Source: Squalus acanthias (lineage: Eukaryota). From it: a stretch of DNA of 64,000 bases. The stretch lies in contig CM059432.1 of NCBI GenBank assembly GCA_030390025.1, forward strand, positions 42,224,001-42,288,000, in the 5' to 3' direction. The notes below the pieces were generated by a model that had not been told where the DNA came from, did not search any database, and saw only the letters and a program-made list of their open reading frames with translations. Below are positions 5,354 through 61,990 of this stretch, in pieces. Made by a program: the position numbers and the translations under genes. Each line of letters starts with the position of its first letter. The stretch's first letter is position 1.

Positions 5354-5496
5354 TTCTGATGGTGGATGCAGTGTGGTAGTTGGGTGGGGATGGAGTAGCA
5401 AATGATCACAGGCTGTATTTTTAGGTGGCAGGGGTTGGGCACTGATGAGGGGAGTGATCAAGCTAGGTAATCGGTTAGGAAGTTACAGAAAAGAAC

Positions 5497-5834
5497 GTGA
5501 GTTCAAAATCCCACCACGGCAGCCAGGGAATTTAAATTCAGTTAATTAAAAAAAAAATCTGGAATAAAAAGCTAGCGTCAGTAATGATGACCATGAAACT
5601 ACCGGATTGTTGTAAAAACCCATTTGGCTCACTAATGTCCTTTAGGGAAGGAAATCTGCCATCCTTACCCAGTCTGGCCTATATGTGACTGCAGACCCAC
5701 AACAATGTTGTTGACTCTTAACTGCCCTCTGAAATGGTGGCTCACCACCACCTTCTCAAGGGTAATTAGGGATGGGCAATAAATGCTGGCCTTGCCAGCG
5801 ATGCACACATCCCATGAACAAATAAAAAGAAAAA
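5497..5834 (+). mobile_element. SINE (5'-truncated) sharing the head and tail of the LINE at 44701-47948
   Basis: B-box-like GAGTTCAAAATCC, body GGAAGGAAATCTGCC...GACTCTTAACTGCCCTCTG, and tail GGGATGGGCAATAAATGCTGGCC. Confidence 0.85.
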
Positions 5835-6825: not shown

Positions 6826-7136
6826 CCAGATTTTTAAAACTGAATTTAAAAAACAATCTGGAAATAAAAACCTGGTATCAGTAAAAGTGACAATAAAGCT
6901 GTTGAATTGTCATTAAAAACCCAACTAGTTCACTCATTTCTTTAGGAAAGGAAACCTGTCGTCCTTACCCGGTCTGGCTTATTTGTGAGTCCAGTTCCAC
7001 ACCAATGTAATTGACTCATAACTGCCCTCCAAAGAAGCCTAGCAAGTCCAACACCAACTTCTTAGCGCAACCAGGGATAGCCAATAAATGCTGTCCTTGC
7101 CAGTGATGCGCACATGTTGAGAATTAACTTTTATAA
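6826..7136 (+). mobile_element. Diverged copy of the same SINE
   Basis: Body GGAAAGGAAACCTGTCGTCCTTACCCGGTCTGG and tail CAATAAATGCTGTCCTTGCCAG. Confidence 0.75.
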
Positions 7137-19588: not shown

Positions 19589-19762
19589 CTTATTTTTCGT
19601 TGCTTTTAATAAAATTGCACGTTATACATTTCAAAGCCATAAATTAGTGCAATTTTCTTAGCAGTTGATGAATTCAGGAGAAAGCATACACTTCTCGTAT
19701 TTTTTGTGAGAAGAGGAATGTGAGGTCATGGTTACTAAAGATCTGTGCCAAAGTCAGGTATG

Positions 19763-24325: not shown

Positions 24326-24511
24326 TTAAGAAACCTATTGTGTGGCACTTTGTGAAAGGCTTTTTTAAAATATCAATCAGGCTACCTAAGTCCACCAACC
24401 TAGAAGCTTCCTCAAAAAATTCAACTAGCTTGGTGAGACATGACCTACTTTTCAGAATCTATGTTGAGACTCTCTAATAACCCTTTCTCTGTCAAGGTGG
24501 CAATACATTAT

Positions 24512-25280: not shown

Positions 25281-25582
25281 AGAATCTCTAATGAGCCCAT
25301 CTAGCAACTAGTCTATTACTGAAGTCAAGCTAATGGGTCTGTAATTACCTGTGTCTAACTTCCTGCCCCTTTAAAATATGGGCACCACGTGGCCCTCTCC
25401 CTAGTCCTTGGGAACAATCCCAGACCCTAGTGAGCTGTTAAATATATGAGCATGGGGCTTGCAGAGCATAGCTCTTATGGGTTGTGATGTTGAAAAACAA
25501 AAGAAAAGTGTGATGGAAGAGAATATGTTTTTAAAAAAGAATCTTTTCACTAAATTTATACATATTAATCACTTATTAATCG

Positions 25583-26125
25583 AAACATAGAAACAGGAGT
25601 AGACCACCCCAGTCCCTCGAGCCTGTTCCATCATTCAATTAGATCACGGTGGATTTGTACCTAAACTCCTTTTACCATATCCCTTGATACCCTTACCGAA
25701 CAAATCCTTATCGATCTCAGTATTGAAAATTTCAGTGGACCCAGCATCCACAGCCCTTTGGGCAAGAGGGTTCCAGATTTCCATGATCCTTTATGTGAAA
25801 ACGTGCTTCCTGATTTCACTCCTAAATAGCCTAGCTCTAATTTTAAGATTGGGCTCCCTTGTTCTGGATTCCCCATCAGAGGAAATAGTTTCTCTCTATC
25901 TATCCTATTGATTGCTTTTATCATTTTAAATACCTCAATCCGATGATCCCTCAACCTGTAAACTCAAGGAAATACAATCAAAGTTTATGCACCCTGTCCT
26001 CATAATTTAACCCTTTAAGCCTCAGCATCATTCTGGTGAATCTGCGCTGAACCCTCTCCTAGGCCAATATATCTTTCCTGAGGCGCAGTGCCCAAATCTG
26101 AATGTATTACTCCAGATGGAGGCAT
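25583..26125 (-). mobile_element. CR1 3' fragment
   Basis: Translation IEVFKMIKAINRIDREKLFPL, followed by a CR1-type 3' UTR. Confidence 0.8.
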
Positions 26126-27932: not shown

Positions 27933-28184
27933 TCCAGCAGGATACCCGTGTGCGATGGATGCTCCCTTCATCGTATGGAGTTGTGGGAGCCCATAAAACT
28001 CTCCCGCTGTATAGGACTAGCCACCCTATTGGCTGCGATAAAGATCATCATGGAAGGAGAGTCCACGTCACGGCCAGTCAGACTGCGAACCCTTACACAA
28101 TTTCACACTATTCCCCCCAAGGGAAGAGTGCAAAGATATGAAACAACAACCAATATAATTGCAATGGTGTGTTAACCCTTCAAA

Positions 28185-28270
28185 AATGAGAAGTCGCACA
28201 ACACCAGGTTATAGTCCAACAGTTTTATTTGACATTACGAGCTTTCGGAGCGCTGCTCCTTCGTCAGGTA
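28185..28270 (-). mobile_element. 86-bp PLE family 1 insertion consisting mainly of a hammerhead (28235-28271)
   Basis: TSD AACCCTTCAAA at 28174-28184 and 28271-28281. Hammerhead UUAC-CUGACGA-A-GGAGC(AGC)GCUCC-GAAAGCUC-GUAA. Confidence 0.85.
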
Positions 28271-28940
28271 AACCCTTCAAAGACTGAAAGGGAAGAACTC
28301 TCCAGATAGCTCAATGGGCAAACACACTGAACCATACAGACCAGGAAATTGTCATTGTCATTATCAATGCCTGATCTGTGTTGAATTAGTGGATCACAGC
28401 CAGGGCAATGGTGATAGGAGTGCTGCAATTGGCTTCAGTGACCCCCTTGATTTGCCCAGAGATGCTGAAACTAATCACTATGCAGTGATTCCTGCTGAAA
28501 ATGTGTAGACATTGGGTGAGAACAGAATATGGCTAATCTGTGATGCATCTGTAGTTGAATAGCCGGTCTAGGTTCAGAAATAAAGAATGGCCACTTGGTT
28601 AGGATACTAGGATTGTCAGTCCAAGTACAGTGTCATCACAGCAAGAATCTGTGAGAAGAGGGGAAAAAAATAAAAAGAAAGTACTTCGGAAGTTATTTTT
28701 CCTCTAACATTGCATGGCAGTGAGCCCACTAAAACTAAAACTCAGTGCCATTATGCCAGTCGTAGAAAGTGCAATTCCTTGCCGTCTGGCACTAAAAGTT
28801 ATTCTGCAGTACAAAGCAGTCTTGTGCTGTCAGGTTAATACTCGTGTCCTGATCTAAACTTGTTTCCTGTGTGGCGGAGATACGTCTGTACATCCCAGGG
28901 AGGAAATGATCAAGAAACGCTCTAAAATGAGACAGAGCGA

Positions 28941-33610: not shown

Positions 33611-34450
33611 TTCCTCTCTGTCTCCTGCCTGAATTGCTAAAAAAAATTCTGCTGCCTAATCTGAATTAAAAGAACAATAGCCCATACACTCAGGAAAGAT
33701 ATGATGTGGCATTGTAGAGTTGCTGGGCTATGTACAGCTCCTAAAGTAGCCTCAAGTTGTTCTGAGCTATCTCGCCGCCAGACCCGATGATTAGTGAATA
33801 AGTACAGAAATAGAAGGATAGAGCAGATGAAAGCATGGCTGGAGAGATGGTGCAGGAGGGAGGGCTTTGGATTCCTGAGGCATTGAGACCGGTTTTGGGG
33901 GAGGCGGGATCTGTACAAGCCGGACGGGTTGCACCTCAACAGGGCCGGGACCAATATCCTCATGGGGAGGTTTGCTAGTACCGTTGGGGAGGGTTTAAAC
34001 TAGCTTGGTAGGGGAATGGGAACCTGAGCGTGGATTCAGAAGGGAGAGAAGCAAAGCTGGAAATGGAAGGCAGAAAATTGGTAAGTAAGTTTGGAAGGCA
34101 GAGGAAACAAAGGCTAGAAAATAAACAACAAAGGGGTTTGGCAGTGCTTAATGGTATATACTTCAATGCAAGGAGTCTAGTGAATAAGGCAGGTGAGCTG
34201 AGGGCACAGATAGACACATGGAAGTATGATTTCATAGCTATTACTGAAACATGGCTGAAAGAAGGGCAGGAATGGCAGTTCAACATTCCTGGTTACAGGG
34301 TTTTCAGACGAGATAGAGAGGGGGATAAAAAAAGGATGGGGGAGTCGCAATATTGGTTAAAGAAACAATTACAACTGTGAAGAGGGATGATATGTTAGAA
34401 AGATCATTAAAAGAGAACATATGGGTTGAACTGAAAATAGGGGAAATCAC

Positions 34451-34548
34451 GAAGGGTCATCGACCTGAAACGTTAACTCTGTTTCTCTCTCCACAGATGC
34501 AGCCTGACCTGCTGAGTATTTCCAGCATTTTCTGTTTTTATTTTATAT
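34451..34548 (+). mobile_element. PLE family 2 3' stub truncated inside the hammerhead
   Basis: TSD TAGGGGAAATCAC at 34438-34450 and 34549-34561. Confidence 0.85.
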
Positions 34549-34937
34549 TAGGGGAAATCACATTGCTGGAATGTACTATAGACCCCCAAATGGTCAGAGG
34601 GAGATAGTAGACCAAATATGTAGGCAAATTTCTGAGAAGTGCTAAAACAATAGGGCAATAATAGTTGGCGATTTCAACTACCCTAATATTAACTGGGATA
34701 GAATCAGTGTAAAAGGTATAGAGGGTGCAGAATTCTTAAAATGCATTCAGGAGAACTTTTTTAGCCAGTACATAGCAAGCCCAACAGGACAGGGGGCAGT
34801 TCTGGACTTAGTTTTAGGGAATGAAGCTGGGCAGGTGGAAGGGGTATCAGTAGGAGAGCAATTTGGTGGTAGTGATCATAATTCAGTTAGATTTAGCATA
34901 GTTATGGAAAAGGACAAAGATAGACCAGGAGTAAAAG

Positions 34938-35276
34938 GAGTAGAAGCTGGCAGCTGTCCTTCATTCTGCCAGTGGATTTCACACTTCTTTCAGCCTTAAT
35001 CTGTCACATTAACACCACCTCTAGCCTTGCATATCTCTTAATGTCTCTTAATGTCTCTTCATCTCCCCCTTTGTTCTTTTATCCCCTCCCCCTTTTCCCA
35101 GCTTTACTCTGGCCTTAAATCTATTTGATTTCCGGCTCTTCACAGTTCTGACGAAAGGTCATCGACCTGAAACGTTAACTCTCTTTCTCTCTCCACGGAT
35201 GCTGCCTGGCCTGCTGAGTTTTTCCAGAGTTTTCTGTTGTTATTTCAGATTTCCAGCATCCGCAGTATTTTGCTAT
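34938..35276 (+). mobile_element. PLE family 2 3' fragment, with hammerhead at 35144-35180
   Basis: TSD AGTAAAAG at 34930-34937 and 35277-35284. Most of it is a near-identical reverse complement of ~16688-16993. Confidence 0.88.
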
Positions 35277-35856
35277 AGTAAAAGTTCTCCATTGGGGAAA
35301 GGCCAATTTTACTAAGCTGGGATGTGATTTAGCAAAAGTGGACTGGAAACAGCTACTTGAAGGTAAATCAGTGTCAGAGCAGTGGGAGGCATTCAAGGAG
35401 GAGATAGTGAGGGTTTGGAGCAATTAGGTTCCCACAAAGAAAAAGGGTGGGACTCCCAAATCTAGAGCCTCCTGGATGTCAAGGGGCATACAGGGTCGGA
35501 TAAGGTAAAAAAAGGAAGCATATGTCAGATACCAAGAGCTAAATACTGCAGAAAGCCTAGAGGAGTATAGAAACTGCAGGGGTGAAATTAAAAAGGAAAT
35601 TAGGAAAGCAAAGAGAGGGCGTGAAAAAATATTGGCAAACAAAATCGAGGAAAACCCAAAGATGTTTTATAAATACATAAAGAGCAAGAGGATAACTAAA
35701 GAAAGAGTGGGGCCTATTAGAGACCAAAAAGGTAACCTGTGTGTGGAGGCAGAAGATGTGAGTATGGTTCTTAATGAATACTTTGCGTCTGTTTTCACAA
35801 AACAGAGGGATGATGCAGATATTGTAGTTAAGGAGGACGAGTGTGAAATATTAGAT

Positions 35857-38615
35857 GACCTGCCATCTATTCCATCAGCATGGGTGCCGTTTATACTGTC
35901 TCACCTTGGTCCTCAGAATTTGACCACGATGAGCCCCAACACTAGCAGCACCAGGCACACCAGCAGCACCAGGCACAGAAGCAGCACCAACAACAACACC
36001 ACCAACCTTCTCCGCAACCACCTGCTGCTGCACAGGACAGAGGGCATCAGCACCCAAGCACATTGCTACCCGGGAGGCCAGGGATGGCCTCATCATGGCC
36101 AGATTTACTTAACTTTACACTGTACATCCATATGGCTGCCACATGCTGCGGCAGTATGGCATCACCCCACAGCAACCACCATAAAGGATCCCTACAATAA
36201 CCAAACCATTCCTTTCATACTGATCACCATTGCTGGAGGTATCGTTCTGTCTCACCAAGCCACTTCCAAAGGTGCAACTCATTAAGCCACTTCCAAAGGG
36301 GCACACAAATGTGTCCAAGATGGAAAGTGGTGGAAATAAAGATTTTAATGGTTGGCAATACATTCATAGAAACTTGCCATTGACATTGACTATAACACCC
36401 AAGCGGCTACCCTTGTGAATCTACTTGTGTGTCATCTTTCTCTTCCGTGTGCTTCTATGAGGTGCTACCCCTGTGGCTTCAGCAGAGGTAGAGGCAGCCT
36501 GCTCACTTCCCTGCTGTGACTGCTTAGACACTCTTGGCGGACGTCCTCTGGGTTTTGGAGCCTGTGATGGCCCTGCCAAAGTCTGCTCCTCCTGCAACTG
36601 TGCAGGGGCAGACTCGGCCATCGCGATCCGAGAAGCCATCTGGGGCTCTAACTGAGGGGGTGGCAATGGGGGAAAAGTGTAAGCGCTTTGAGAGGAGCCC
36701 ACACTTCCCTCTCCCCTCTCACCGTCAACCCTCTCATGGGCCACCCGTACTTCCCTGTTAGCAATGAGCTGAAGAGCACCTTGCTGCATATCAGTGGGGC
36801 CATGAGGACCCACGGCTACGCTGGCATCCCTCCTAGACAGGAGGTCTATGAGCCTCTGCCATCTATGCTCCATAGATAGCCATCTATTCTCCATGGATAA
36901 CCATCTATTCTCCATAGCTAGCATATGCTCCTGTGAGTGGCGCATTAGCTGCTCCATGCAGGTGGCCATCTTATCCGTGGAGGAGCCTACAGTCGCCATC
37001 GCCTGCGACACGGTGGTGCTGATGTTGGAGATGGACTCCTCCATTCTCTGAACATTTGCAGAGATCACGCTTGCAAAACCTGTCAGAGCCTCCTGCACCT
37101 CTTGCTGCACCTCCAGGATCGCCCTCTTTCTGGATGGCCCCTGAGGCTCAGCGTCTGCATGCAGCTGGGCAAAGTTGGGAGCACCTGCGCCCTCCGACGA
37201 GGAGTCTCCACTGCTGTCCCTGTCTCCACCATCTGCTCTTGCTCACTTGTGACTTGTGACGGACCCGATGACAACACTACTCTATCTCGCGTTGGACCCA
37301 CCGAGGTGTGCGTTTCTGCGCTGGTGCTGGGTGCGCTTCTGTCTGGTGATGCTGCACCCTCAGAGGCTGGAGGTTCCTCTGAGGAGTCGTCTTGCTCTTC
37401 CTCCTGGACAGTGGGGGGGGGTGGGTGGGGGGGGGGGGGTGCTCTTGATGGACCAGTGGGAGAGTAAGGAGATGAGTTAGATATGTCATATGAAGAATGG
37501 GTGCACATACCATTATGCACATGTTGACTATTCAGTGGCTGATGACATCAGTCTCCATATGAGTGACTGATGTATGCCATGTAGCTGTAAGATTTATTTA
37601 ATTCTGTCACCAGGATGCTGAGATGTCCCCAACTCTCCGTCTCCCACCTCCAGCTGCTCAGCCACTCCTGAGACTTACAACGCAGCCTCCTCTGCTGTTG
37701 TGAGGATGGCAAATGATGGAGGCCCACCTCCAGTTCTCTTCCTATCCCTCTTATTGTGCGCTTTCTTCTCCTGCGAGGAGGGAAAGAAGTGAAGGTTGAG
37801 TGAGAATCTCTTTAGAGGGAGACTATGATGGATTGGAGTGGCAATGCTAAGTGGGCTCCTTGCGTGTTGTTAGTTGGTATGATTGCATTAGGATGAGGCT
37901 GAGTGTGAGGGGTGGCTAGTGAGATGGGGATGTGATAATTTAGATAGAGAGAGAGGGATGGGTGGATGTGCAAGGTAAGTTGGTGTGAGTAAGGATGTGC
38001 AGGAGTAGGGTTGGGAAGGCAGAGTGATGGGGATGCGGTGACAGGCACAGCAGGATGAAGTTGAGTGTGGCTTTGTACTCACATTTCCAGATCTAATGAG
38101 ATCATTGAAACGTTTCCGGCACTGCTCCCAGGTCCTCCTGACCACATCCCTGCTGTTGACCTCCTCTGCAATCTGGAGCCAGGCTCTTTTTGTCTCCCGG
38201 GGAGGTCTCTTCCACCCATTGGAAGGGAAGAGGACCTCCTTGCGTGCTCTGATTCCCTCCACAAGATTATGGAGGAGTCATCGGAGAACCTGGGTGCAGC
38301 CCTCTGCCTCTGTGCAGCCATCTCTCCAACTGTTTGGAGCAATGAAAACCTCCAGTATGCTGCCTGCACTCTCCTAGATGAACCTTCAAATGCAATGTCG
38401 CCATGGCTCCTTTAAATATCCCGGCTGAAAACGTGTCATGGATGACATCATCAGACCTGCACCATTTAATTGGGCTAGGTAACGCGCAGGGCGGGCTTAA
38501 TAGGCCCCATTATCGCAAAGTCATTTTCCGCAGCGGGATGGAAGCAGCAACGGGGTCGCGGCCCACCACGCCGTCCGCCTGCACCCGCCCCGCCCAGGTA
38601 AAGAAAATTCCAGCC
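35857..38615 (-). mobile_element. Harbinger family B non-autonomous element (Myb gene retained, transposase internally deleted, one end missing)
   Basis: TIR AAAATTCCAGCC ends at 38615. The element interrupts CR1 ORF2, and its ends are homologous to 62697-64000. Confidence 0.82.
36421..38321 (-). pseudogene. Harbinger Myb/SANT-like DNA-binding gene, 3 exons (38321-38083, 37770-37611, ~37454-36421), disabled
   Basis: Motif KRAWLQIAEEVN…RTWEQCRKRFNDL; exon 2 reads EKKAHNKRDRKRTGGG. There is a frameshift in exon 1, a TAA in exon 2 and a frameshift in exon 3. Confidence 0.78.
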
Positions 38616-40188
38616 AGTGAGAGAGGAAATATTAAGGGATGTAACATCTTTGAAAGTAGCTAAGTCACTAGGCCAAGATGAAATGTATCCCAGGCTGTTA
38701 AGAGAAGCAAGGGAGGAAATAGTGGAGGCTCTGACAAGCATTTTCCAGCTGTGGTGCCAGAGGACTGGAGGACTGCTAATGTTGTACCATTGTTTGAAAA
38801 GAGAGAAAGGGACAGATCAAGTAATTATAGGCCTGTTGGCCTAACCTCGGTGGTGGGCAAATTATTGGAATAAATTCTGAGGAACAGTATTAATTGTCAT
38901 TTAGAAAGGCACAGATTAATCAAGGACAGTCAGCGTTGATTTGTTAAGGAAAGGTCATGTCTGACTAACTTGAATTTTTTGAGGAGGTAACAAGGAGGGT
39001 TGATGATGGTAGCGCGTTTGATGTAGTCTGCATGGATTTTAGCAAAGCTTTTGACAAGGCCCCATATGGCAGACTGGTCAGAAAAGTAAAAGCCCATGGG
39101 ATCCAACGGAAAAAGTGGCAAGTTGGATCCAAAATTGGTTCAATGGCAGGAAACAAAGGGTCAACAGGTGTTTTTGTGACTGGAAGGCTCTTGATAGTGG
39201 GGTTCCGCAGGGCTCCGTACTAGGTCCCTTGCTTTTTGTGATATATATCAATGCTTTAGACTTTAATGATTAAGAAGTTTGCAGATGATACAAAAATTGG
39301 CCGTGTGGTTGATAGTGAGGAAGAAAACTGTAAACTGCAGGAATATATCACCAATGGACTGGTGAGGTGGGCAGAAAAGTGGCAAATCCAATTCAATCTG
39401 GAGAAGTGTGTATTTGGGGAGGGCTAACAAGGCAAGGGAATACACAATAAATGGTAGGATACTAAGAAGTGTAGAGGAACAGCGGGACCTTGGCGTGCAT
39501 GTCTACAGATTCCTGAAGGTAGCAGGATAAGGTGGTTAAGAATACGGGATACTTTCCTTTATTAGCCGAGGCATAGAATATAAAAGCAGGGAGGTTAAAC
39601 TTGAACTGTATAAAACACTAGTTAGGCCACAGCTAGAGTACCGCGTACAGTTCTGGTCACCACATTACAGGAAAGATGTGATTGCACTAGAGAGGGTACG
39701 GAGGAGATTTACGAGGATGTTGCCAGGACAGGAGAATTTTAGCTATGGGGAAAGATTGGATAGGCTGGGGTTGTTTTCTTTGGAACGGAGAAGGTTGAGA
39801 GGAGACTTAATTGAGGTGTATAAAATTATATGAGGGGCCTAGATAGAGTGGATAGGAAGGAATTATTTCCCTTAGCAGAGAGGTCAATAACCAGGGGCCA
39901 TAGATTTAAAGTAATTGGTAAAAGGATTAGAAGGGATTTGAGGAGAACTTTTTCACCCAGGAGGGTGGTGGGGGTCTGGGACTCACTGCCTGAAAGGGTG
40001 GTAGAGGCAGAAACCCTCATTGCATTTAAAAAGTACTTGGATAAGCACTTCAAGTGCTGTAACCTACAGGGCTACGGACTAAGAGCTGGAAAGTGGGATT
40101 AGGCTGGATAACTCTTTTTCAGCCGGCACAAACATGATGGGCCAAATGGCCTCCTTCTGTGCCGTAAATTTCTATGATTCTGTGGGGA

Positions 40189-43639: not shown

Positions 43640-44700
43640 TGATCAGACATTAAAGTCTTTGGATGAGTTTGTCTTGCAGCTGGCTCCCAACAGCTGTCTG
43701 TGACCTTGCTGTGTCCTCATCAGGTATGATTCCTTCTCTCTCGGGGGGTTCAGCTTGTGACTCAGTCTCCTCAGCAATCTCACTTTCCAGGCCTTTTTGA
43801 AGAGTGGAATTGTGGAGAACATAACAGGCCACCACAATTTGCATGACAATATCGGGAGCATACTGCAGGGAGCCCTCGGATCTATCTAGGCATATGAATT
43901 TTCCCTTCAGCATGCCAATGATCTGTTCAATTTTGATCCAACTGCAGACACGAGCCTTATTGTAGCCTTCCTCTGCTTCATTGATGTTGCTGCTTGATGG
44001 TTTTAGAAGCCGCAGTAGTCTTGGATACCCCTTGTTTCCAAGAAGCCAGCCGGGCACCTTGCCCTTGATTCTAAAAGAGTGTCGTGACAGAGGAGTGCCA
44101 CAGGATGAATGAATGAATCATGGCAGCTCTCTGTATACTGGGCATTGATGTGCAGAAAGCTATGCCTGTTGTCACATTAATTGGACACTAAGGGAGTGAA
44201 ATCCCTTTTCGTTCATATAATGGTGTGTGTTGACAGTAGGGGCTTGCATGGCCACATAAATGCAATATATAGCTCAAAGCACTCATGGAAACCTTGCAAT
44301 CTAATCAAAATTAATGGCCTGCTCAGCCATTTCTCTTGGTACAGCATCAAATGTAATGAACTGAGATGCCCTAGCAAATAGGGCATTAATTATCTACCTT
44401 GTGCAAGAAAGGACAGCAAATTGACTGACCAGGCAGAAGTCACCTGATACTCCTTGGAATGATCCAGTGGCCAACAAAGTAAATGCTGTTGTGACTTTCT
44501 GAGCCACAGCAAGTGCTGCCCTGGTTCTTGATGAAGTTTGCAGATCTCCCCATAGGATGGAACATAACTCTTCTAGGCTTTCTGAACTATAGCTTCTTTA
44601 TGCATAACTCCAGGCATATATTTAAATAAGATCTTTTGTGCCTCTACACGCGGGCGGCTGGGTATCTGCTGGAAGGGCTAGATCTCGTGCTGTGCTGCAC
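43640..44700 (-). pseudogene. Old Harbinger transposase pseudogene (TIR-like GGGCTCGAAATT at 43283, preceded by TAA)
   Basis: Motifs WLLGNKGY…IEQIIGMLKGKF…LQYAP…ACYVLHN, with KVTTAFTLLATGSFQ upstream. The N-terminal part is interrupted by the LINE. Confidence 0.8.
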
Positions 44701-47700
44701 GGGAACGGTAGTATAGTGGTAATGTCACTGGGCTAATAATCCAGCAGGCCTAGACTAATGATCCAAAGAGGTGAGTTCAAATCCCACCGTGGCAGCTGGG
44801 GAATTTAAATTCAGTTAATTAAATAAATCGTGAATAAAAAGCTAGTATCAGTAATGGTAACCATGAAAATATCGGATTGATGTAAAAACCCATCTGGTTC
44901 ACTAATGTCCTTTAGGGAAGGAAATCTGCCATCCTTACCTGGTCTGGCCTATATGTGACTCCAGACCCGCAGCACTGTGGTTGACTCTTAATTGCCCTCT
45001 GAAATGGCCAGCAAGCCACTCAATTGTAACAAACCACTTCGAAACACAATAATAAGAATGAAACCGGATGGACCACCTGGCATCGACCTTGGCACTGGCA
45101 ACAGCACACCCTGCCCAGTCGACCCTGCAACGACCTCCTCACCAACATCTGGGGACTTGTCCCACAGACTAGTCAAGCAACAGCCTGAGATAGTCATTCT
45201 CACAGAATCATACCTTTAAGCCAATGTCCCAAACTCCTCCATCACCATCTCTGGGTATGTCCTGTCCCAGCGGCAGGACAGACCTACCAGGGGTGGTGGC
45301 ACAGTGGTATACAGTCAGGAAGGAGTGGCCCTGGGAGTCCTCAAAATTGAATCCGGATCCCATGAAGTCTCATGGCTTCAGATCAAGCATGGGCAAGGAA
45401 ACCTCCTGCTGATTACCACCTACTGCCCTCCCTCAGCTGATGAATCAGTACTCCTCCATGTTGAACACCACTTGGAACAAGCACTGAGAGTAGCAAGGGC
45501 ACAGAATATACTCTGGGTGGGGGACTTCGATTTCCATCACCAAGAGTGGCTCGGTAGCACCACTGTTGACTGAGTCCTGAAGGGCATAGCTGCCAGTCTG
45601 GGCCTGTGACAGGTGGTGAGAGAACCAACACGAGGGAAAAACCTACTTGACCTTGTCGTCACCGATGTATCTGTCCATGACAGTATTGGTAGCAGTGAAC
45701 ACCGCACAGTCATTGTGGAGACGAAGTCCCGTCTTCACACTGAGGACACCCTCCATCATGTTGTGTGGCACTACCACCGTGCTAAATGGGATAGATTCAG
45801 AACAGATCTAGCAGCTCAAAACTGGGCATCCATGAGGCGCTGTGGGCCATCAGCAGCAGCAGAATTGTATTCCACCACAATCTGTAACCTCATAGCTTGG
45901 CAAATCCCTGACTCTACCATTACCATCAAGCCAGGGGACCAACCCTGGTTCAATAAGGAGTGTAGAAGAGCATGCTAGGAGCAGCACCAGGCGTACCTAA
46001 AAATGAGGTGGGAAGCTGCAACACAGGACTACATGCATGCTAAAAAGCGGAAGCAGCATGCTATAGACAGGGCTAAGCGATCCCACAATCAACGGATCAG
46101 ATCAGATCAAAGCTCTGCAGTCCTGCCACATCCAGTCGTGAATGGTGGTGGACCATTAATCAACTAACGGGAGGAGGAGGCTCCATGAATATTCCCATCC
46201 TCAATGATGGTGGAGCCCAGCAGGCGAGTGCAAAAGACAAGGCTGAAGCATTTGCAACCATCTTCAGCCAGAAGTGCCGAGTGGATGATCCATATCGGCC
46301 TACTCCTGAGGTCCCCACCATCACAGAAGCCAGTCTTCAGCCAACTCGATTCACTCCATGTGATATCACGAAACGGCTAAGCGCACTGGATACAGCAAAG
46401 GCTATGGGTGATGACAACATTCCAGCTGTCGTGCTGAAGACTTGTGCTCCAGAACTAGCCGCGCCTCTAGCCAAGCTGTTCCAGTACAGCTACAACACTG
46501 GCATCTATCCGACAATGTGGAAAACTGCCCAGGTATGTCCTGTCCACAAAAAGCAGGACAAATCCAATCCGGCCAATTACCGCCCCATCAGTCTACTCTC
46601 AATCATCAGCAAAGTGATGGAAGGTGTTGTCGACAGTGCTATCAAGTGGCACTTACTCACCAATAACCTGCTCACTGATGCCCAGTTTGGGTTCCGCCAA
46701 GACCACTCAGCTCCTGACCTCATTACAGCCTTGGTCCAAACATGGACAAAGGAGCTGAATTGGTGAGGTGAGAGTGATTACCCTTGACATCAAGGCAGCA
46801 TTTGACCGAGTGTGGCATGAAGGAGCCCTAGTAAAACTGAAGTCAATGGGAATCGGGGGGAAAACTTTTCACTGGCTGGAGTCATACCTAGCACAAAGGA
46901 AGATGGTTGTGGTGATTGAATGCCAATCATCACAGCCCCAGGACATCGCTGCAGGAGTTCCTCAGGGCAGTGTCCCAGGCCCAACCATCTTCAGCTGCTT
47001 CATCAATGACCTTCCCTCCAATATAAGGTCAGAAATAGGGATGTTCGTTGATGACTGCACAGTGTTCAGTATCATTCACAACTCCTCAGATAATGAAGCA
47101 GTCCATGCCCGCATGCAACAAGACCTGGATGACGTTCAGGTTTGGGCTGATAAGTGGCAAGTAACATTCGCGCCACAGAAGTGGCAGGCAATGACTATCT
47201 CTAACAAGCGAGAGTCTAACCACCGCCCCTTGACATTCAATGGCATTACCATCGCCGAATCCCACACCATCAACATCCTGGGGGTCACCATTGACCAGAA
47301 ACTTAACTGGACCAGTCACATAAATACTGTGGCAACAAGAGCAGGTCAGAGGCTAGGTATTCTGTGGCGAGTGTCTCACCTCCTGACTCCCCAAAGCCTT
47401 TTTACCATCTACAAGGCACAAGTAAGGAGTGTGATGGAATACTCTCTACTTACCTAGATGAGTGCAGCTCCAACAACACTCAAGAAGCTCAACACCATAC
47501 AGGACAAAGCAGCCCGTTTGATTGGCACCCCATCTACCACCTTAAAAATTCACTCCCTCCACCACTGGCGTACCGTGGCTGCAGTGTGTACCATCTACAA
47601 GATACACTGCAGCAACTCGCCAAGGCTTCTTCGGCAGTACCTCCCAAACCCGCGACCGCTTCCACCTAGAAGGACAAGGGCAGCAGGCACATGGGAACAC

Positions 47701-47948
47701 CACCACCTCCAAGTTTCCCTCCAAGTCACACACCATCCTGACTTAGAAGTATATCGCCAATCCTTCATCGTTGCTGGGTCAAAATCCTGGAACTCCTTAC
47801 CTAACAGCATTGTGGGAGTACCTTCACCACACGGACTGCAGCGGTTCAAGAAGGCGGCTCACCACCACCTTCTCGAGGGCAGCTAGGGATGGGCAATAAA
47901 TGCTGGCCTTGCCAGCAACGTCCACATCCCATAAATGAATTTTTAAAA
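44701..47948 (+). mobile_element. CR1-group non-LTR retrotransposon (APE plus RT, decayed) with a tRNA-derived 5' head and no visible ORF1
   Basis: APE motifs IVILTES, WVGDF and NLLDL. RT motifs YRPISLLS, QFGFR, LDIKAAFDRVWH, GVPQGSV and FVDD. A-box at 44709-44719 and B-box at 44773-44783. Confidence 0.88.
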
Positions 47949-48621
47949 GGTGTTATTGTTGAAGTTACATCAGAACTAGAAGGTTTATTTTTCAGAGGGT
48001 CTGTTGTAAGTGTCTGTTTTTTTATTAGTTGAAATAATCCTTTAAAGCTGGCATACATGTGTGAACCATGTGTACCATACCATAATAACTAATCCAATGC
48101 AGCTCAAAAACTGTAGCTTTGTGCCATTTCTATTACAGCCTCAGTAGACTGAAATGATTGCCTGGATGCAAACTGTTTAATTGCTGGAAAATGTCAGACT
48201 TTGTTTGTCTTCAGGAGACAATGAACATCAACCAGTCTGAACTGAATGTAAACACATTTCATTTTTCTGAAAAATAAATAGTTACGTGTCTAGGAGCTGT
48301 TGTGGATATAAAACGGACATTAATCTTGTCAGTGAAGAACGTTTCATCTAACAGAGCTGTGCATTACCAATGGATAGGGGTACACACATAATCCAATCCA
48401 GAAAAACAGAAACATTTATTCAACCAAGCATAGAGTTGGAATGCATTTAATAAATTCCATCCCATTCATTCCCACTAAATTCTTGATTCAAGTGTGACGT
48501 TTTAGCACCCAGTCGTGTTTCTGACATATCCATTTTTTATTAACATTCACCTCATTAAATATATTCATCCCACTGCCAAAGTCCACCTTGAGATTGAAGG
48601 AGGTTTTGTATACAATACAGA

Positions 48622-49178
48622 GCATCATAGAATCATAGAATAGTACAACACAGAAGGAGGACATTTGGCCCATCGAGTCTGTGCCAGCTCTTTCAAAAAG
48701 CAATCCAGTCACTGACCCATCCCTGCTCTTTCCTCATATCTCTGCTATTTTTCTCCTTCAAGTATTTATCCAATTCCCTTTTGAAGGCTACTATTGAATC
48801 TGTATCCACCACTCTATCAGGCACTGCATTCCAAATCCTAAAGTTTTTCCTCATGTCGCCTCTGGTTCTTTTGTCAATCACCTTAAATCTGTGCCCTCTG
48901 GTTACTGACCCTTCAGCCATTGGAAACTGTTTCTCTTTATTTACTCTATCTAAACCCTTCATGATTATCAACACCTCTATCATATCTCTTCCTAGCCTTC
49001 TCTGCTCTAAGGAGAACAACCCCAGCTTCTCCAGTCTGTCCACGTAACTGTAATCCCTTAACCCTGGAACCATTCTAGTTAATCTCTTCTGTACCCTCTC
49101 CAAAGCCTTCACGTCCTTCCTAAAATGCGGTGCCCAGAATTGGACGCAATACTCCAGCTGGGGCCGAACTAGTGTTTG
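48622..49178 (-). mobile_element. CR1 3' fragment
   Basis: Translation KALERVQKRLTRMVPGL…LEKLGLFSLE, followed by a GATTCTAT tail. Confidence 0.88.
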
Positions 49179-51761
49179 TAATAGTGCTGTTAAAAATGAT
49201 TGAGTAAATATGGTGTGGTTGGAATAAAAGAATTAGCAAATTACCTATTTTCATCTGAAGTTTATAAAGAACCTAGACTTGATGCTGGCCCGAAGGTAAA
49301 AATTCTTGACAGTCTAGCTATGCATTTACCAGAATGAAACTGCTCCGAGCTCTATCCAGTGATGACTAGATTCTTACTTTCCAACAATTTTCTCAATCTG
49401 GAACTTTGTGTGTAGCAGGAACGTGCTGCACAATTCAGAGGGCAGTTAATTAGCAATAAAATTGCGGTATGTTCAATGAATTGTGGCAGACTTTGGAAAT
49501 GATTTAAAAGTTTTCAATAGCTGTTAGGAATGCCGTTTTACCCCATGTTCATGGTAGATATGTTTTGTGATAAGGCATCGCAGTTATTTGCCCATACTGC
49601 TGGATAGGGCCTTATTTCCAATGATCTTAGATGATTTGCATGAAAATAATCATGGCTTTTTTCAGCAATGTCATTTCTTTTTCTCCCATGGTTTTATGAT
49701 TTAACTACGAGAGACAAATATGGAAGTGGAATAATGAGCTTTATTGTGGGGGGAAATTGTTCAGAGCATATACTTAAGATCTCCATATTCTTCCTATCAC
49801 TTGAAGTATTTCATATGTGGTCTGACTGTCTAGTGGTACAATTAAGTCTGCTGTAAATGACACTGATATGGCTGAGCATGTCCTCTGGTAAAGGATGACT
49901 TGTGAATCATATGGATAGTGAAGAAAGTGGATGATGTTCTTGATTAATGACAGTTCAGAGGGGCCCCATCTCTGATCTAATTATAATTATTTTAAACAAA
50001 ATTCCATCTGTAAAAAAATTCAGAAGATTTGTGTTTAGTAATAACTAAACAAACAAAGCAGTGTATGTGAAAATAAAAAGAAAAGCCACAATTGCTGAAA
50101 TATTGTAACAAATATAATGCTGGTCAGGCAACATCTATACAAGTATTGTTGAAGACCTTTATCTTTTATAACAATAATGTACAACCTTATTATACCAGAG
50201 ACTATAATTGGAATAGAAAGGACAGTCTACTGTTTCTATGTGAATCATTTTATTTTTGAAAATTATTTCTATGTTACAGTAAGCAGCTCTTCCAATGGCT
50301 TAGTAACTAAGCAATTTGATACTGAACTATACAGGGCACGCAGCTCCAATGTTCAACTTAGTGGTGGAAGTCACAATTAACCTCAGCACCCCTGGGCAAG
50401 GGAGATGAAAGATGCAGCCTGAGTGGGTCCTGCTTACTGTCAAAGTGCAAGTGTGGCCATTGGGGAAAGACAGGATCAGGCTGAAATGGAATATCTTCCA
50501 TGATCAAATGACCTGCCAACGCTTATTGTCTAAGATTACACATGAAGAATGGGCAATTGGACAAGGTACTGGAGGGCAACCAGTGCCTCTATAACTGTAC
50601 AGGAGCAACAATCAGTGCCTTCAGAAGAAATTTGGGGAAAAAAATAATTTAAATACTACGGTAACTATACTCACAACTCTGCTTCCAAGCACACAGGCAT
50701 CACTGCTTGGGTGAGTCTGAATCTCGGAGACTAGCCTGACAGTGACAGGTAGTGAAAAATGGATGATGCATCTTTATAGGAAGTGATTGTATCATATTAT
50801 TATACCACTGTTCTTTTCAAGTGTGGCAGACTGCAACGGGTACAGACTGTGAGGAAAGATAAAAATGTGAGAAAGACACATCTTTACCCAGAGAATCAGT
50901 GTTACAGGTGGTGTGTAATACAGTGGGCTACAGCAGAGGTTACTATTCACAGAACGAACTGCTGCCACCAACATAAATCATCTCTTCTCAGCCTCGGAAT
51001 GAGTAATTGTGCCCCAGAGACCAATTTTCTGTAGAAAGTGCCCCACAAATCCTCAGCAATCCCCTGAGATACTCATTGTCATCGTATTGACTGCGTTTTA
51101 TTTATTCGCTATTTGAACAGGCCAGGGGACCGCCAGGATAGTCCAATAAAATGGATCGTACCTAATTGACAAGTGCTGAGAAAACCTGAATAGCTGTGGT
51201 CTCGGTGTGAAGCACTGAAAGTGACAAAAATAGGAACAGTCCATGTGAAGCCGTTTACTGAAGAAACTCTATTGTTTTGCATTAAACCTTAACCATTGTG
51301 TTCTTCAGCGGCATTTCGCACTAAAATTGACAATAGCTTTTTCACCTTGTGAACTGTTGCTCTTGCAGGAACACTTTTCACTTCAGTATTCCATAATTGT
51401 CTTCATTAATATATTCACACTGGTATTTTTAGAATAGACTATATTTGCCAGACAACTAATATTCTGATGGATTCTAGTTTCTCAGTAAGGAACAAACCCC
51501 ACAGAGAACAGATAGACTACAGGAAGCTATAGATGTAGCCAAACAAAATGACAGCATTTTTAAGTTGCTTTAAGCTATTTACTGGGTTTCATAATAATTA
51601 AAAGAAAGGACTGAAAAGGAGTACATGCTTTTCACATGTATAAATATATCTGTAATATGTTTAAAGTCTTGTATCTAGTGTGCACATCCTATTGTATCAC
51701 CTTTGCCACCACACTTTGTTGATTGGTTCAAAGTAAAACAGTAGCAAATCTGAACTGAATA

Positions 51762-53135: not shown

Positions 53136-53249
53136 GATCATGTCCAAAATAAGATTTAAAATAAAATAAAAACATAAATGATTATATATTTCACAATAAC
53201 AGGATTAAATATACCCACTGACTTGTCTTTTGTACATTTTAATACCTTG

Positions 53250-54096
53250 GATGATCATAATTTAACATTTTAAGCCCCGGTATCATTCTGCACTGCACCT
53301 CCTCCATGGCCAATATATCTTTCCTGAGGTGTGGTGTCCAAAACTGAATGTAGTACTCCAGTTGGGGTCTGACCAAGCCTCTATACAACTGAAGCATAAC
53401 TTCCTCCACTTTGTATTCCAGCTCCTTTGAGATAAAGGCCAACATTTCATTAACCTTTTCGATTACCTTTTGTACCTGTCTACTGACTTTTAATGATTTG
53501 TGTACTTGGACTCCCAAATCACTTTGCTCTGCTGCTGTTCCTTATTTCTCACCATTTAGAAAATACCCTGATTTATCTTTCTGGATGACCTCACACTTGC
53601 CCGCATTGAACTCCGTTTGCCATAGTTTTACCCACTCACTTAACCTATCTATGTCCCTTTGGAACTTCCTGCTCCCATCTGCACAACTTACTATCCCTCC
53701 TAAATTAGTGTCATCTGCAAGCTTGGATATGCAACTCTCTATTCCTTCATCCAAGTCATTAATAAATATGGTGAAAAGTTTAGGCCACAGAACAGATCTC
53801 TGGGGAACACCAATTATCACATCCCACCAATCAGCGTACCTACCCTTTGGGCTGGATTTTGATACTGGGGCGGGTTGGGGTCGTGTTATCCACTTTTCGT
53901 GTTATCCACCCGACTGCAATTGGATGTGGGAGATTGATGCGATTTTCACCTAATTGGGCAATTGAGTTCCAGCATGTGGGAACCCATGACCAATTAGTGT
54001 TTTCAGTCTGAAAGTCGCCTCTGATGATGTCATCATTGCTGCTGCATTGAAAGTCTGCCTGGCCTTTGCTGTGAGAGGACCTGGATGCAAAATGAG

Positions 54097-54152
<56 letters not shown>

Positions 54153-54670
54153 TTGCTGTGAGAGGACCTGAAGGCAAAATGAGCAGCAGCAGCCCTACAT
54201 CTGCTCCCAGATATTTTTCCTGCTACTACTCCGTTGTAATAGTGGACCTGCACCTCATAGTCAGCTTTTCAAATGTGTTACCGCCAGGTTTCACAATCAT
54301 GGTTCAGAACAGGCGTGCTTCACGTAGAACAAGGGTTAAAATCACAAAGGCCTTTCAAAATAGCATTATAGAGCCAATTTAGTGCTTGTTAAGGGCCTTA
54401 ACAGCCTATCCCGCCTCTTAAAGGCGGGACAGAGTCGGGACCAGCAGACACGATTTAATGAAAATTGCGTGGAGGCGGGATGGAGGCGGACTTGTGCCTG
54501 CCCGCCCGCTTTTACAATTTTAACCCCCCACACGCCTCCAAACCCGCCTCCACACGTCAATGAAAATCCAGCCCTTTATCTCCACTCTCTGTCTCCTACA
54601 TCCAAACCAATTGGTAACCCAAGTCAAAAGGCTACCTCCAATTACGTGTGTTCTCATTTTTGCTAATATT
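53250..54670 (-). mobile_element. CR1 RT fragment split by MITE copy 2
   Basis: Motifs GVPQRSVL…INDL…KLADDT and LVRPQLEY…FW. Confidence 0.8.
53849..54574. mobile_element. Harbinger-type MITE, copy 2
   Basis: Perfect 12-bp TIRs, TTT TSD (53846-53848 and 54575-54577), and an internal (GA)n tract at ~54100-54151. Confidence 0.87.
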
Positions 54671-55200: not shown

Positions 55201-55205
55201 AGAAT

Positions 55206-55621
55206 GGTAGCATAGTGGTTATGTTACTGGACTAGTAATCCAGAGGCCTGGACTGATGATCCGAAGACATGAGTTCATAATCCCACCATGGCAGCTGGGG
55301 AATTTAAATTCAGTTAATTAAATAAATCTGGAATAAAAAAGCTAGTATCAGTAATGGTGACCATGAAACTATCGGATTGTCATAAAAATCCATCTGGTTC
55401 ACTATTGTCCTTTAGGGAAGGAAATCTGCCGTCCTTACCTGGTCTGGCCTATATGTGACTCCAGACCCACAGCAATGTGGTTGACTCTTAACTGCTCTCT
55501 GAAATGGCCGAACAAGCCATTCAGTTGTCTCAGCATCACCTTCTCAAGGGCAGTTAGGGATAGGCAATAAATGCTGGCCTTGCCAGCGACGCCCACATCT
55601 CATGAATGAATTTTAAAAAAA
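55206..55621 (+). mobile_element. Full-length tRNA-derived SINE (head and tail of the 44701 LINE)
   Basis: A-box TAGCATAGTGG, anticodon arm CTGGA-CTAGTAA-TCCAG, B-box-like GAGTTCATAATCC, and the LINE 3' tail. Confidence 0.88.
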
Positions 55622-56338
55622 TCTGGAAGCCTTTCCAGCTGCAAGACACTCCCGAGGACACTCTGAGGCTGCAGCTGCTTCAGGATTTCTTGCAGCAAAA
55701 TGATGTTGCTCTTTAACTGATTGTTGCCTTTTAAAGGCTGCACCAGAACTGAATTTCCGTCCCTCCCAGTGGTGGTAAACCCATTAGGTTACCAAATCTT
55801 CCCTCCATATCAATTGCAGTGGATTAGAGGTAGATTTACATTGGTGGATTGTATTCCCACTAATTTGCCAATGGATTGGAAATCCAGTTTGTGGTGTCGA
55901 TAGGGGCATGATGCGGAGATGCCGGTGTTGGACTGGGGTAGACAAAATTGAGAGGTCGCACAACACCAGGTTATAGTCCAAGGGGTAGAAATTAGGTCGC
56001 GCCCCATTTGGGGCGCAAATATCGTCCGGACGCAAATATTAGCGCCTGGCGCTAATTATCGGCACTGACAGGAAACTTCACTTTTACCGCCCCGGGAGGT
56101 GAGTGGAGCGCTAAAGCAGGCGCTGCACACCTGTCTTAAGGCGCAAAGGCCAAGGAGTGAGGCGCTAACTCAGCGCGCGAGCGCAGCGCAGCTGCTGCCA
56201 GTTAGCGAGGGAACACAGACACACTGGCGCCGGACACTTCTTAAAGCGGGGGGGGCCACTTGCTCCCCAGCCACACCCTGCTCATTGCAGCCTTGAATCT
56301 CAGCCTGGAGAGACCTGTAATCCATTTTGCTGCCAAGC

Positions 56339-59616: not shown

Positions 59617-61990
59617 ATTCTCTTTGCCAGAAAAGTAATGAGGTACAGCAACTAAAGTAGCAACAAAGTTAGGATGAATAGGCAAAACTACCTCACAAAG
59701 CGTTGAGTCAATGTAGAAGTCTCTCTCTCTCTCTCTCCGAATCTCTCTCTCTCTCTCAGAACGAGTGGTGCATAAATGTCGACCACAGAAAAAGACAGGA
59801 AGAGGCCCCCTTTAAATAGCGCCCCCCCCAGCCCCACACCGATTGATAGCGTTCCAGTCTTCCGGTCGTTGGAAGCGCCAGGCGGTAAGGCAGGGGGCGC
59901 CACTCAATTTCCGCTCCGGGGTGCCCCAAGGGCGTTGCACCATGGAATGACGTCACAATCTGCGCGCGCAGGTGGTCGCAGCGGTAAGTTTTAGCGCCGC
60001 CGCACAATCTCAAGTTAAGTTCTCGAGCGGCGCAAACATTGCTGCGCCCGGGCGTTAGCGGCTTAACGCCCCATTAGCGCCCTCTTAAGGCGCTAACGGG
60101 AGGCGCAACCAAGTGAATTTTTACCCCCAACAGTTTTATTTGAAATCACAAGCTTTCGGAGCTTACTACTCCTTCACCCGACGAAGGAGTAGTAAGCTCC
60201 GAAAGCTTGTGATTTCAAATAAAACTGTTGGACTATAACCTGGTGTTGTGCGACTTCTCAATTTTGGAAATCCAGGCCAGGGAATCTCACCCTCAAAAAT
60301 CCCCAAAATGGATTAATAGGGAGAAAAGTCTACCAGGACAAATCTGCTATTGATTACATAATAAAGCCTGATGCCTTAATTTCAAATTCATGTATCTTTT
60401 GCCCAGGCTATTACTTGGCCTACCTTGAAATGTCTAAGCTATAATAAGGATAGATGTATACTGTCACCAATGTCCTATAAATTATTTAACAAGATTTTTT
60501 TTAAATCCTTGTTTCTTCTTTTTTAACTACAGACTGCAATGCTTCTGCACAACCCAGGTAACTGGAACTTACTAATTGGTCAATTTTATGCTTATGAAAC
60601 CAACTTGAAATTGACAAACACATCATTGAAAATGAGAAGCTGCAGTTTTGATTACTGCCAGGTACTGATTTTCTCTTGTAGCATCAAACTGTTTTTATAG
60701 ATTTATTGCAGACAGAAGCTATTACTATATTAGTTTTCACTTTCAGCGCCCATCATATTTAGTGCATGTACTATAAATCGTAACGCAGCAGAAAGCTGTG
60801 GCTGCAAGGTAGCACTACAAATCACTGAGTAGATGACTGATCTATGATGATCTGTCCAGGAATGTCAATGATACCAGTGGATAAGGTGTAATGGAGACCT
60901 CCAAGTGCTGCTTAAAGGCTTAGGGGATTCTTTCTGTGTATGTTTTCATCAAGGTGAGCTATAGTAATCTTGGAGCATTCAAATGTTTTCCCACTTGATA
61001 TCCATCAATAGTGTCAAGGCCTCCTCAGTCATGTCTGGCATAGTCCAGTGTATTAGAATCAATGCCAAACTGAAGGATAAACCAGAAGTGGACTAAGTTT
61101 TACCTGATTTCAAATGTATTCGCAAAACAATAAGGTCTGGCCCTGTTTGGACTACTATGCATTAAAAGGTAACTGTCTCTGTTTCAAAATTAAATAAATA
61201 TGGGGATGATTTTCTCCTGATATGTCAGTGGTGCAGATGGATCGGAAAGTTTGGGAAGAGTTGTTACCCTGAAAGGGCACCCGGAAGCACACTACGAGGT
61301 ATTTTCAGCACTTGCTGTGAGGTAAGTCAGGAGGCTCATAATTTAAGTGTATGCAGGCCTCAAAAAGGGGGCAAAAAACAAGGCGTTCCTCAACATATTT
61401 TCCATGGTTTGCTCTCTAATTGTGATGCGATCACTAAAAGCTAATTTTACACAGGCACATTTGGCAATTCACTTCCTGGTGCTTCCCTTAAAGCTCTGTT
61501 TAGCTGCATTGGGTGAGAGTGTGAAGTATTTACTTCTTTGGCTTTTTGGTTTGCTTTTGGTGAATTTAGTTTGATTCATTTTTTTGGAGCTATTTTTGAA
61601 GTGTTTTAATTTCTTCTCTTTATCTACCATTGAAGGGAGTTTTGCTCTCAATTCAAACACTCTAAACTGGTAGATGGGCATTCCTCTGGGAATTCCTCAC
61701 CCTCGGGGAGCTTGATTATACATAGTTGCATGTTCAGCTTTGGCCTTGTGCAGGGAACCAGCTTAATGGGACATATGAAAAATCTGGTCAGCAGATCAAG
61801 TTTAGAGGATGTGTGCACTTAAAGTTAAGCAGCTGCATCTGGGAATAAATAGCGTTTTTAAAAGGTTCGCAGTGTGCACAGATGTAAAATAATTCCTTTG
61901 CGCAGCTATCGTGGTTCTCAACACCTTATTGTAAATTTCTCTTCTGTTACAGCACTTGCTGTCTGAGACCATCACCACAATTTGTATACA

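What the first reader, a model, noticed from the sequence alone, without database searches (positions are those of the whole stretch)
44701..47948. LINE with a tRNA-derived Pol III head, and SINEs that join its two ends
Seen: the first ~320 bp of this APE-RT element carry an A-box, a B-box and the same body as the SINEs at 5497, 6826 and 55206. Those SINEs then jump straight to the LINE's last ~90 bp. APE-coding sequence begins ~430 bp in, leaving no room for an ORF1. Known: SINEs usually borrow only the 3' tail of a partner LINE, and LINEs normally use internal Pol II promoters. Inference: this is either an autonomous single-ORF LINE family that starts with a tRNA head and whose internal deletions are the SINEs, or a one-off SINE/LINE chimera.
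Basis: partly seen in the sequence, partly recalled or inferred. Interest (0 to 1): 0.7.

Follow-up and report, generated by a model that had tools for sequence, protein, structure and literature searches.

The report
Shark Zenon LINE with tRNA head
An abundant jumping gene of sharks and rays that encodes its own copying enzymes begins with the tRNA-like promoter module normally seen only on short non-coding SINEs, and local SINEs look like its two ends joined together, hinting (not yet proving) that it may be copied by the polymerase that makes tRNAs.

Summary
Observation confirmed, with a correction: only the SINE at 55202 has the A box. The element is not a one-off chimera. It is a decayed full-length copy of the elasmobranch Zenon family (CR1 group; no ORF1, poly-A tail; PMC13343379). 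All 7 of 7 published shark and ray Zenon consensuses start with this head, body and linker; 0 of 3 hagfish/coelacanth ones do. That paper's main text never mentions tRNA or Pol III. Contigs from four runs cover the linker far above flank level. The SINEs join the two ends at four different joints, like Zenon-derived Persaeus of moths, which lacks a tRNA head (PMC6740152). The sense strand is poor in T runs (2 runs of T≥4 in 3.2 kb, both apparently private), as a Pol III template would need. That signal vanishes under dinucleotide shuffling, and C runs are also scarce. Known: the family, the single ORF, deletion derivatives. Apparently unremarked: a fixed tRNA head on an autonomous LINE. Pol III transcription is inferred only. 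The scan noted the same element at two other loci of this genome.

The parts
44701..44794 (+). tRNA-derived head; A-box-like motif 44709-44719, B-box-like motif 44775-44783
   Evidence: ARAGORN 44702-44794; motif scan; first base coincides with the first base of SquAca_Zenon-1 (read by eye)
44795..45027 (+). Body shared with the SINEs; rest of the 5' UTR
   Evidence: BLASTN and alignments to 3 SINE copies; present in 7 of 7 elasmobranch Zenon consensuses
45028..45134 (+). LINE-only linker, absent from the SINEs; holds an ATG at 45058 that is out of frame with APE in the family
   Evidence: Multi-copy depth in 4 runs; frames; HypSab and SquAca-3 consensuses read by eye
45135..47886 (+). Single APE-RT reading frame, broken in this copy by stops and indels
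   Evidence: Pfam PF14529 and PF00078; collinear with 940-980 aa relatives P0015, P0019, P0027; stops at 45217, 45976, 47455 and 5 extra nt at 46095 not shared by most or many contigs
47853..47948 (+). 3' tail shared with the SINEs: last codons of the ORF, 3' UTR with a stem-loop, A-rich end
   Evidence: fold z -2.0, 9 of 200 shuffles as stable; poly-A loose ends behind 47940 in runs X1, X7, X13
55202..55625 (+). Complete SINE: head + body + tail, joint 45027/47858
5490..5830 (+). 5'-truncated SINE copy (B box, no A box), joint 45007/47853
6833..7130 (+). Older, 5'-truncated SINE copy (no boxes), joint 45018/47860

Best explanation
Shown: this is a full-length, decayed copy of the shark/ray Zenon LINE, whose normal 5' end is a tRNA-derived A/B-box head followed by a ~330 bp UTR and a single APE-RT frame. 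Inferred step 1: an ancestral elasmobranch Zenon gained the head by template switching onto a tRNA-derived RNA, and the fusion was fixed before sharks and rays split. Inferred step 2: the head is the working internal promoter, so Pol III makes the 3.3 kb RNA, which is why the sense strand avoids T runs. Inferred step 3: the protein binds the 3' stem-loop and copies the RNA by target-primed reverse transcription (established for stringent LINEs; recalled). Inferred step 4: when RT jumps from the tail region to the end of the body, the product keeps promoter and tail and is a ready-made SINE; this happened several times. How the ORF is translated is unresolved: no in-frame AUG was found, so frameshifting from the upstream AUG frame or cap-independent, non-AUG initiation is needed. 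Confidence by step: family structure about 0.97; SINEs as deletion derivatives about 0.7; Pol III transcription of the full-length RNA about 0.45.
For: 7 of 7 elasmobranch Zenon consensuses (5 species, shark and stingray) start with the head; 0 of 3 hagfish/coelacanth ones do (first 400 nt only, by eye). A-box-like motif in 7 of 7, B-box-like motif intact in 6 of 7 (by eye). The window copy differs from SquAca_Zenon-1 at about 25 substitutions and 3 indels in 400 nt (by eye). Linker bin depth 392,423 / 84,657 / 35,782 / 1,902 against left flank 67 / 20 / 15 / 0 in runs X1, X7, X13, X17; depth rises toward the 3' end, as 5' truncation gives. Heterodontus P0005 keeps 18 residues between the head-end peptide and the linker peptide, as the family does; P0163 runs from linker into APE. 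Four different SINE joints: three in the window and about 45009/47876 in 4 of 4 runs. Head and tail of each SINE are about equally diverged from the LINE (91/88.5, 89.7/88, 80.4/74.7%). The two younger SINE bodies are of the Squalus type, not the Carcharodon/Rhincodon/Scyliorhinus type (by eye). T>=4 runs: 2 in 3235 nt (0.62/kb) against 4.4-7.9/kb in 6 of 6 other LINE fragments of the window; T>=3 runs 12 against 24 expected, P about 0.003. One run is broken in most contigs (47402, 47403); the other overlaps a Phe codon that is Leu in 2 of 2 related gene models covering it. By eye, 0 of 7 elasmobranch Zenon 5' ends hold T>=4, against 3 of 3 other Zenons and 11 of 13 Carcharodon CR1 rows seen.
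Against: No transcript start, cap or polymerase data: all runs were contigs. T>=4 depletion alone is not significant in this copy (P 0.10-0.11 mononucleotide, 0.56 dinucleotide shuffle); T>=3 depletion disappears under dinucleotide shuffles (P 0.17); C>=4 runs are depleted too (6 against 13, P 0.007), so the effect may be general composition. Control LINE fragments are older and richer in T, so not matched. No contig listed in table 8 bridges head to APE (32 of about 736,000 pieces shown), and depth at 45039 is 8-10 times lower than at 45131 in all four runs. Contig depth is no copy number. HypSab's B box is degenerate. The head of this copy does not fold better than shuffles (z +1.2). Uncapped Pol III RNAs are normally not translated (recalled).
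Confidence: 0.5

Rival explanations
1. Same fixed structure, but the full-length RNA is made by Pol II (from the body or from host read-through). The A/B boxes persist because the head is exchanged with active SINEs or has a structural role in the RNA.
For: LINEs are generally Pol II products (PMC5786205 passage); a long ORF needs translation; T-run signal is weak under dinucleotide control.
Against: Boxes kept at the exact 5' end in 7 consensuses across sharks and a ray; low T-run density over the coding part, which SINEs do not share.
Confidence: 0.33
2. SINE first: an independent tRNA SINE with a Zenon tail donated head and body to the LINE, and today's SINEs descend from that SINE, not from deletions of the LINE. 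This changes the direction of origin and is compatible with either promoter model.
For: SINE module exchange by template switching is common; Zenon tails are borrowed by bivalve SINEs; the copy at 6833 is an older type (80%); 3' joints cluster at 47853-47860 in 3 of 3 window copies.
Against: At least four joints, short shared letters at two of them, and SINE bodies that track the local LINE type fit repeated deletion, as shown for Persaeus.
Confidence: 0.3
3. One-off SINE/LINE chimera at this locus.
For: Single small-RNA/LINE chimeras are common in mammals (PMC13174262); no listed contig bridges the whole junction.
Against: 7 of 7 published consensuses built from other genomes have the same junction; a second locus in Heterodontus.
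Confidence: 0.02
4. [quoted passage not shown]
For: The junction lies at the end of the SINE body.
Against: No second SINE tail within 1.5 kb downstream (best local score 22 against 166 for self) and no target-site duplication of 6 nt or more.
Confidence: 0.02

Closest known systems
Elasmobranch Zenon LINEs (SquAca_Zenon-1/-2/-3, CarCar, RhiTyp, ScyCan, HypSab Zenon-1; Stuart et al. 2026, PMC13343379; CR1-Zenon-like in whale shark, bioRxiv 10.1101/443036)
   Same: Same 5' 400 nt, same start base, similar length (3314 characters against 3248 bp), no ORF1, APE-RT, poly-A tail.
   Different: Nothing structural. The paper's main text has 0 hits for tRNA, Pol III or polymerase III and 1 for SINE, in a reference title; the head and the SINE link are not discussed there.
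Persaeus SIDEs derived from Zenon in Lepidoptera (PMC6740152)
   Same: Repeated internal deletion of a Zenon, joining the 5' end to the end of the ORF plus 3' UTR, variable breakpoints, microhomologies.
   Different: Persaeus has no tRNA homology and no Pol III promoter; here the parent LINE itself carries one, so derivatives are SINEs at birth.
Bipartite RTE/Vingi/Ingi-derived SINEs (Kojima 2018, PMC5786205; Kojima 2020, PMC7245038)
   Same: SINE = small-RNA head + LINE 5' UTR + LINE 3' end.
   Different: There the head is added to a non-autonomous bipartite derivative and the autonomous LINE has none; here the head is on the autonomous element, of the CR1/Zenon group.
SacSINE1 (DeuSINE of Squalus; PMC5499810, PMC2746220) and HE1 (V-SINE with HER1 tail)
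   Same: tRNA-derived shark SINEs with LINE-derived tails.
   Different: SacSINE1 is 463 bp with a tail matched to L2-2_CM; these SINEs are about 420 bp with a Zenon tail. No sequence was available to compare; recall of the Deu and V domains suggests neither matches.
Small-RNA/L1 chimeras (U6-, 5S-, tRNA-L1; PMC13174262)
   Same: Template switching puts a small RNA at a LINE 5' end.
   Different: Those are scattered single insertions, tRNA mostly half-length and antisense; this one is sense, whole and fixed in a large family.

Membership tests
Elasmobranch Zenon (CR1 group) | No ORF1; single APE+RT frame | tested here: met
   APE starts about 434 bp from the 5' end; Pfam APE and RT; collinear with 940-980 aa relatives
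Elasmobranch Zenon (CR1 group) | Poly-A tail (unique among CR1-group elements per PMC13343379) | tested here: met
   A-rich loose ends behind 47940 in 3 of 4 runs (766, 1067, 870 records); SINE copies end A-rich
Elasmobranch Zenon (CR1 group) | Sequence identity to published consensus | tested here: met
   First 400 nt about 93% alike to SquAca_Zenon-1, counted by eye; the rest of each consensus was cut from view
Elasmobranch Zenon (CR1 group) | RT groups with Zenon in a tree | not tested
   No named Zenon RT sequences were held; nearest named protein relatives are shark gene models and an amphioxus protein
tRNA-derived SINE (SINE2), copy 55202 | tRNA-like head with A and B boxes, LINE-derived tail, no ORF | tested here: met
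   A-box motif at 55208; B box present with one inserted base; tail equals LINE end
tRNA-derived SINE (SINE2), copy 55202 | Transcribed by Pol III | not testable with these tools
   Only contigs available
SIDE / bipartite internal-deletion derivative | Both ends collinear with the LINE, nothing foreign between, several breakpoints | tested here: met
   3 of 3 window copies and a fourth joint in 4 of 4 runs
SIDE / bipartite internal-deletion derivative | Derivatives nest within the local LINE lineage in a tree | tested here: inconclusive
   Younger SINE bodies are Squalus-type by eye; no tree built
SacSINE1 / DeuSINE | Deu domain and L2-type tail, 463 bp | not testable with these tools
   No sequence found in supplements searched; original paper not held; length and tail differ, so not filed here
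Pol III-transcribed autonomous LINE (proposed) | No T>=4 terminator on the sense strand | tested here: inconclusive
   2 runs in this copy, both apparently private; significance depends on the null model; full consensuses not visible

The most novel reading that the evidence does not exclude
The shark/ray Zenon is an autonomous, protein-coding retrotransposon transcribed in full by RNA polymerase III from a captured tRNA promoter, purged of oligo-T terminators over 3.2 kb and translated without a cap or in-frame AUG; every internal deletion of it is a finished SINE, giving a direct one-step route from LINE to SINE.
Probability: 0.4. Interest if true: 0.85.

Novelty: new variant of a known kind. 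Interest (0 to 1): 0.62.

Why it matters
SINE bodies are of unexplained origin, and the published model adds a small-RNA head to an already deleted LINE (PMC5786205). Here the head sits on the autonomous LINE across sharks and a ray, so SINEs can arise by deletion alone. If Pol III makes the full RNA, it would be a natural long protein-coding Pol III transcript, which makes cap-independent translation and terminator avoidance directly testable. It also means repeat annotation in sharks will split one element into a SINE plus a 5'-truncated LINE and miscount both.

Tried and rejected
No whole genome was held, so copies with head and APE contiguous could not be counted in the assembly. Collection scans for DNA loci found nothing: metagenomes by protein (307 pattern matches, 0 confirmed) and by motif, viral contigs, prokaryote genomes; these collections are not expected to hold shark DNA. 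Earlier-findings search by sequence was empty. My first reading, that the SINE is SacSINE1 with a Deu domain and the LINE an L2, was dropped: no sequence to test it, size and tail differ, and the LINE matches Zenon. Folding of head and body gave no signal (z +1.2, +0.6). ARAGORN's Ile(aat) call rests on a letter that differs in the consensus, so the tRNA type is not assigned; the long variable arm suggests a Ser/Leu type (recalled). A read-through start (AUG, one codon, UAG at 45004) stays in frame with APE in 3 consensuses by eye but meets a second stop in the Squalus type, so rejected as general. Run X17 (RNA is only a guess) was not used as evidence of transcription. The region 19020-19680 was read as a possible second SINE family and is not one. 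Claim that the head is unremarked rests on ten paper searches; Repbase, Dfam, SINEBase entries, Ogiwara 1999 and Nishihara 2006 could not be seen and may record it.

Full report
Observation. The window is from a shark: the closest named proteins are from Heptranchias and Heterodontus. No assembly was held. The SINE at 55202-55528 matches 44703-45027 and continues without a gap into a match to 47858-47948. Two more copies (5490, 6833) do the same but are 5'-truncated: one lacks the A box, one lacks both boxes. ARAGORN finds one tRNA-like gene in 64 kb, at 44702-44794; Rfam scores it below threshold (16.4 bits, E 1.6), as expected for a decayed, derived head. Pfam finds the endonuclease and RT domains, and the APE start motif lies about 434-450 bp from the 5' end. 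There is no target-site duplication of 6 nt or more and no second SINE tail downstream.

Family or one-off. Three lines show a family. First, contigs of 4 runs (of 24 listed; four differently coded organisms) laid on 44556-48095 give depth in the LINE-only linker bin of 392,423, 84,657, 35,782 and 1,902 against 67, 20, 15 and 0 in the left flank, rising toward the 3' end, with poly-A loose ends. Depth of contigs is no copy number, depth at 45039 is 8-10 times lower than at 45131, and none of the 32 pieces listed bridges head to APE, so this line alone is not decisive. Second, a Heterodontus gene model (P0005) carries the translated head end and the linker at the family's spacing, then APE; its Ig-domain part is not in this window, so it is another locus. 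P0163 reads from linker into APE. Third and decisive, Supplementary Table 2 of Stuart et al. 2026 (PMC13343379) lists 10 Zenon consensuses that my searches for -1 to -5 names found; only the first 400 nt of each are visible. All 7 from sharks and a stingray begin with the A/B-box head, body and linker; the 3 from hagfish and coelacanth do not. SquAca_Zenon-1 starts at the same base as 44701 and is about 93% alike over 400 nt by my count by eye. Table S3 gives intact/total copies of 0/2313, 1/1419, 3/612, 0/59, 0/396 and 1/294; one cell is mangled to a date that reads as 6/3750 (inference).

What is known. That paper states that Zenon elements lack ORF1 and have a poly-A tail, and that elasmobranch Zenons were not in repeat repositories. 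Its main text has no hit for tRNA, Pol III or polymerase III. The whale-shark preprint names CR1-Zenon-like LINEs once, without structure. Zenon in Lepidoptera repeatedly gave internally deleted Persaeus elements, which lack any tRNA or Pol III promoter (PMC6740152). Kojima 2018 found LINE 5' parts in SINE bodies for RTE and Vingi, with the head added after deletion. Bivalve SINEs borrow Zenon tails. So the single ORF and the deletion derivatives are known; the fixed tRNA head on the autonomous element was not found in print in ten searches. Repbase, Dfam and two original SINE papers were not visible (Ogiwara 1999 not tried) and may record it.

Origin of the SINEs. The three window copies have three joints (45027/47858, 45007/47853, 45018/47860) and a fourth near 45009/47876 stands in 4 of 4 runs (10, 5, 7 and 1 contigs). 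Two joints show short shared letters. Head and tail of each copy are about equally diverged from the LINE, and the two younger bodies are of the Squalus type rather than the type seen in three other sharks (by eye). This favours repeated deletion from the headed LINE (about 0.7), though a SINE that donated its head is not excluded. I first took the SINE for SacSINE1; that could not be tested and length and tail differ, so I do not file it there.

Promoter. A Pol III template must lack runs of four or more T on the sense strand (established; recalled). The element has 2 such runs in 3235 nt (0.62/kb), against 4.4-7.9/kb in 6 of 6 other LINE fragments and 6.4-6.9/kb in the window. One run is broken in most contigs; the other covers a Phe codon that is Leu in 2 of 2 related gene models. 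T>=3 runs are 12 against 24 expected (P about 0.003); with amino acids fixed they are 10 against 22.9 (0 of 2000) or 16.2 (P 0.03), and a frame with no T>=4 run would arise with P 0.007-0.025. Against this: T>=4 alone is not significant (P 0.10-0.56), T>=3 is not under dinucleotide shuffles (P 0.17), C>=4 runs are also scarce (P 0.007), and the controls are older and richer in T. The evidence is suggestive only. Translation is unresolved: the APE frame has no AUG between its upstream stop and the start motif in this copy, and the conserved AUG at 45058 is in another frame in the HypSab consensus (by eye). In this copy a 20-nt loss, seen against SquAca_Zenon-3, happens to fuse the two frames.

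What I saw of each paper. PMC13343379: outline, passages, section 15, supplement searches and part 9. PMC5499810: parts 1-3 of 6; supplements not available. Passages only: PMC4824008 (supplement search 44, one file not searched), PMC2746220, PMC7245038 (supplement search 51), PMC5786205, PMC3747384, PMC10468316, PMC11481361, 10.1101/443036 (75), PMC7140322, PMC6740152, PMC13174262. PMC5804259: supplement search only.

Earlier scan notes. Two notes on other loci of this genome describe the same element. I saw them after reaching the Zenon reading; they are not counted as support.

Verdict. A real, conserved feature of a known LINE family: new variant of a known kind. Interest 0.62; 0.85 if Pol III transcription of the full-length RNA is shown (probability about 0.4).

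Noticed in passing
window 2635-4853: Two arms of about 1040 bp, 99% complementary, 142 nt apart. The middle reads like the end of a Penelope-type RT (recalled), so probably a young inverted Penelope-like insertion; short matches to its ends recur at 19757-19968, 28181-28272, 55905-55981 and 60127-60266.
   Followed up: partly
window 44745-44772 and published Zenon heads: The stem between A and B boxes differs between Squalus-type and Carcharodon-type heads by two apparently compensatory base-pair changes (by eye), hinting at selection on the RNA fold of the head.
   Followed up: no
window 44960-45000 and 47775-47830: The end of the body and a stretch just upstream of the LINE tail align weakly with each other; if real, this likeness could guide the RT jump that makes the SINEs. 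Not tested against chance.
   Followed up: no
window 34156-40054 (+), 48626-49211 (-), 53230-53910 (-), 22912-26115 (-): Other, older RT-bearing LINE fragments, 24-37% identical to this RT where they align; used only as controls.
   Followed up: partly
P0005, P0008, P0009, P0011, P0012, P0100: Several shark gene models (Ig/TCR-like V locus, aldo-keto reductase, CWC25, storkhead-box, zinc finger) include pieces of this LINE as exons; probably annotation errors, exonisation not excluded.
   Followed up: no
window 1947-2120: Tandem array of a 29-nt unit, about 5 copies, inside a repeat that also occurs inverted near 53845-54585.
   Followed up: no
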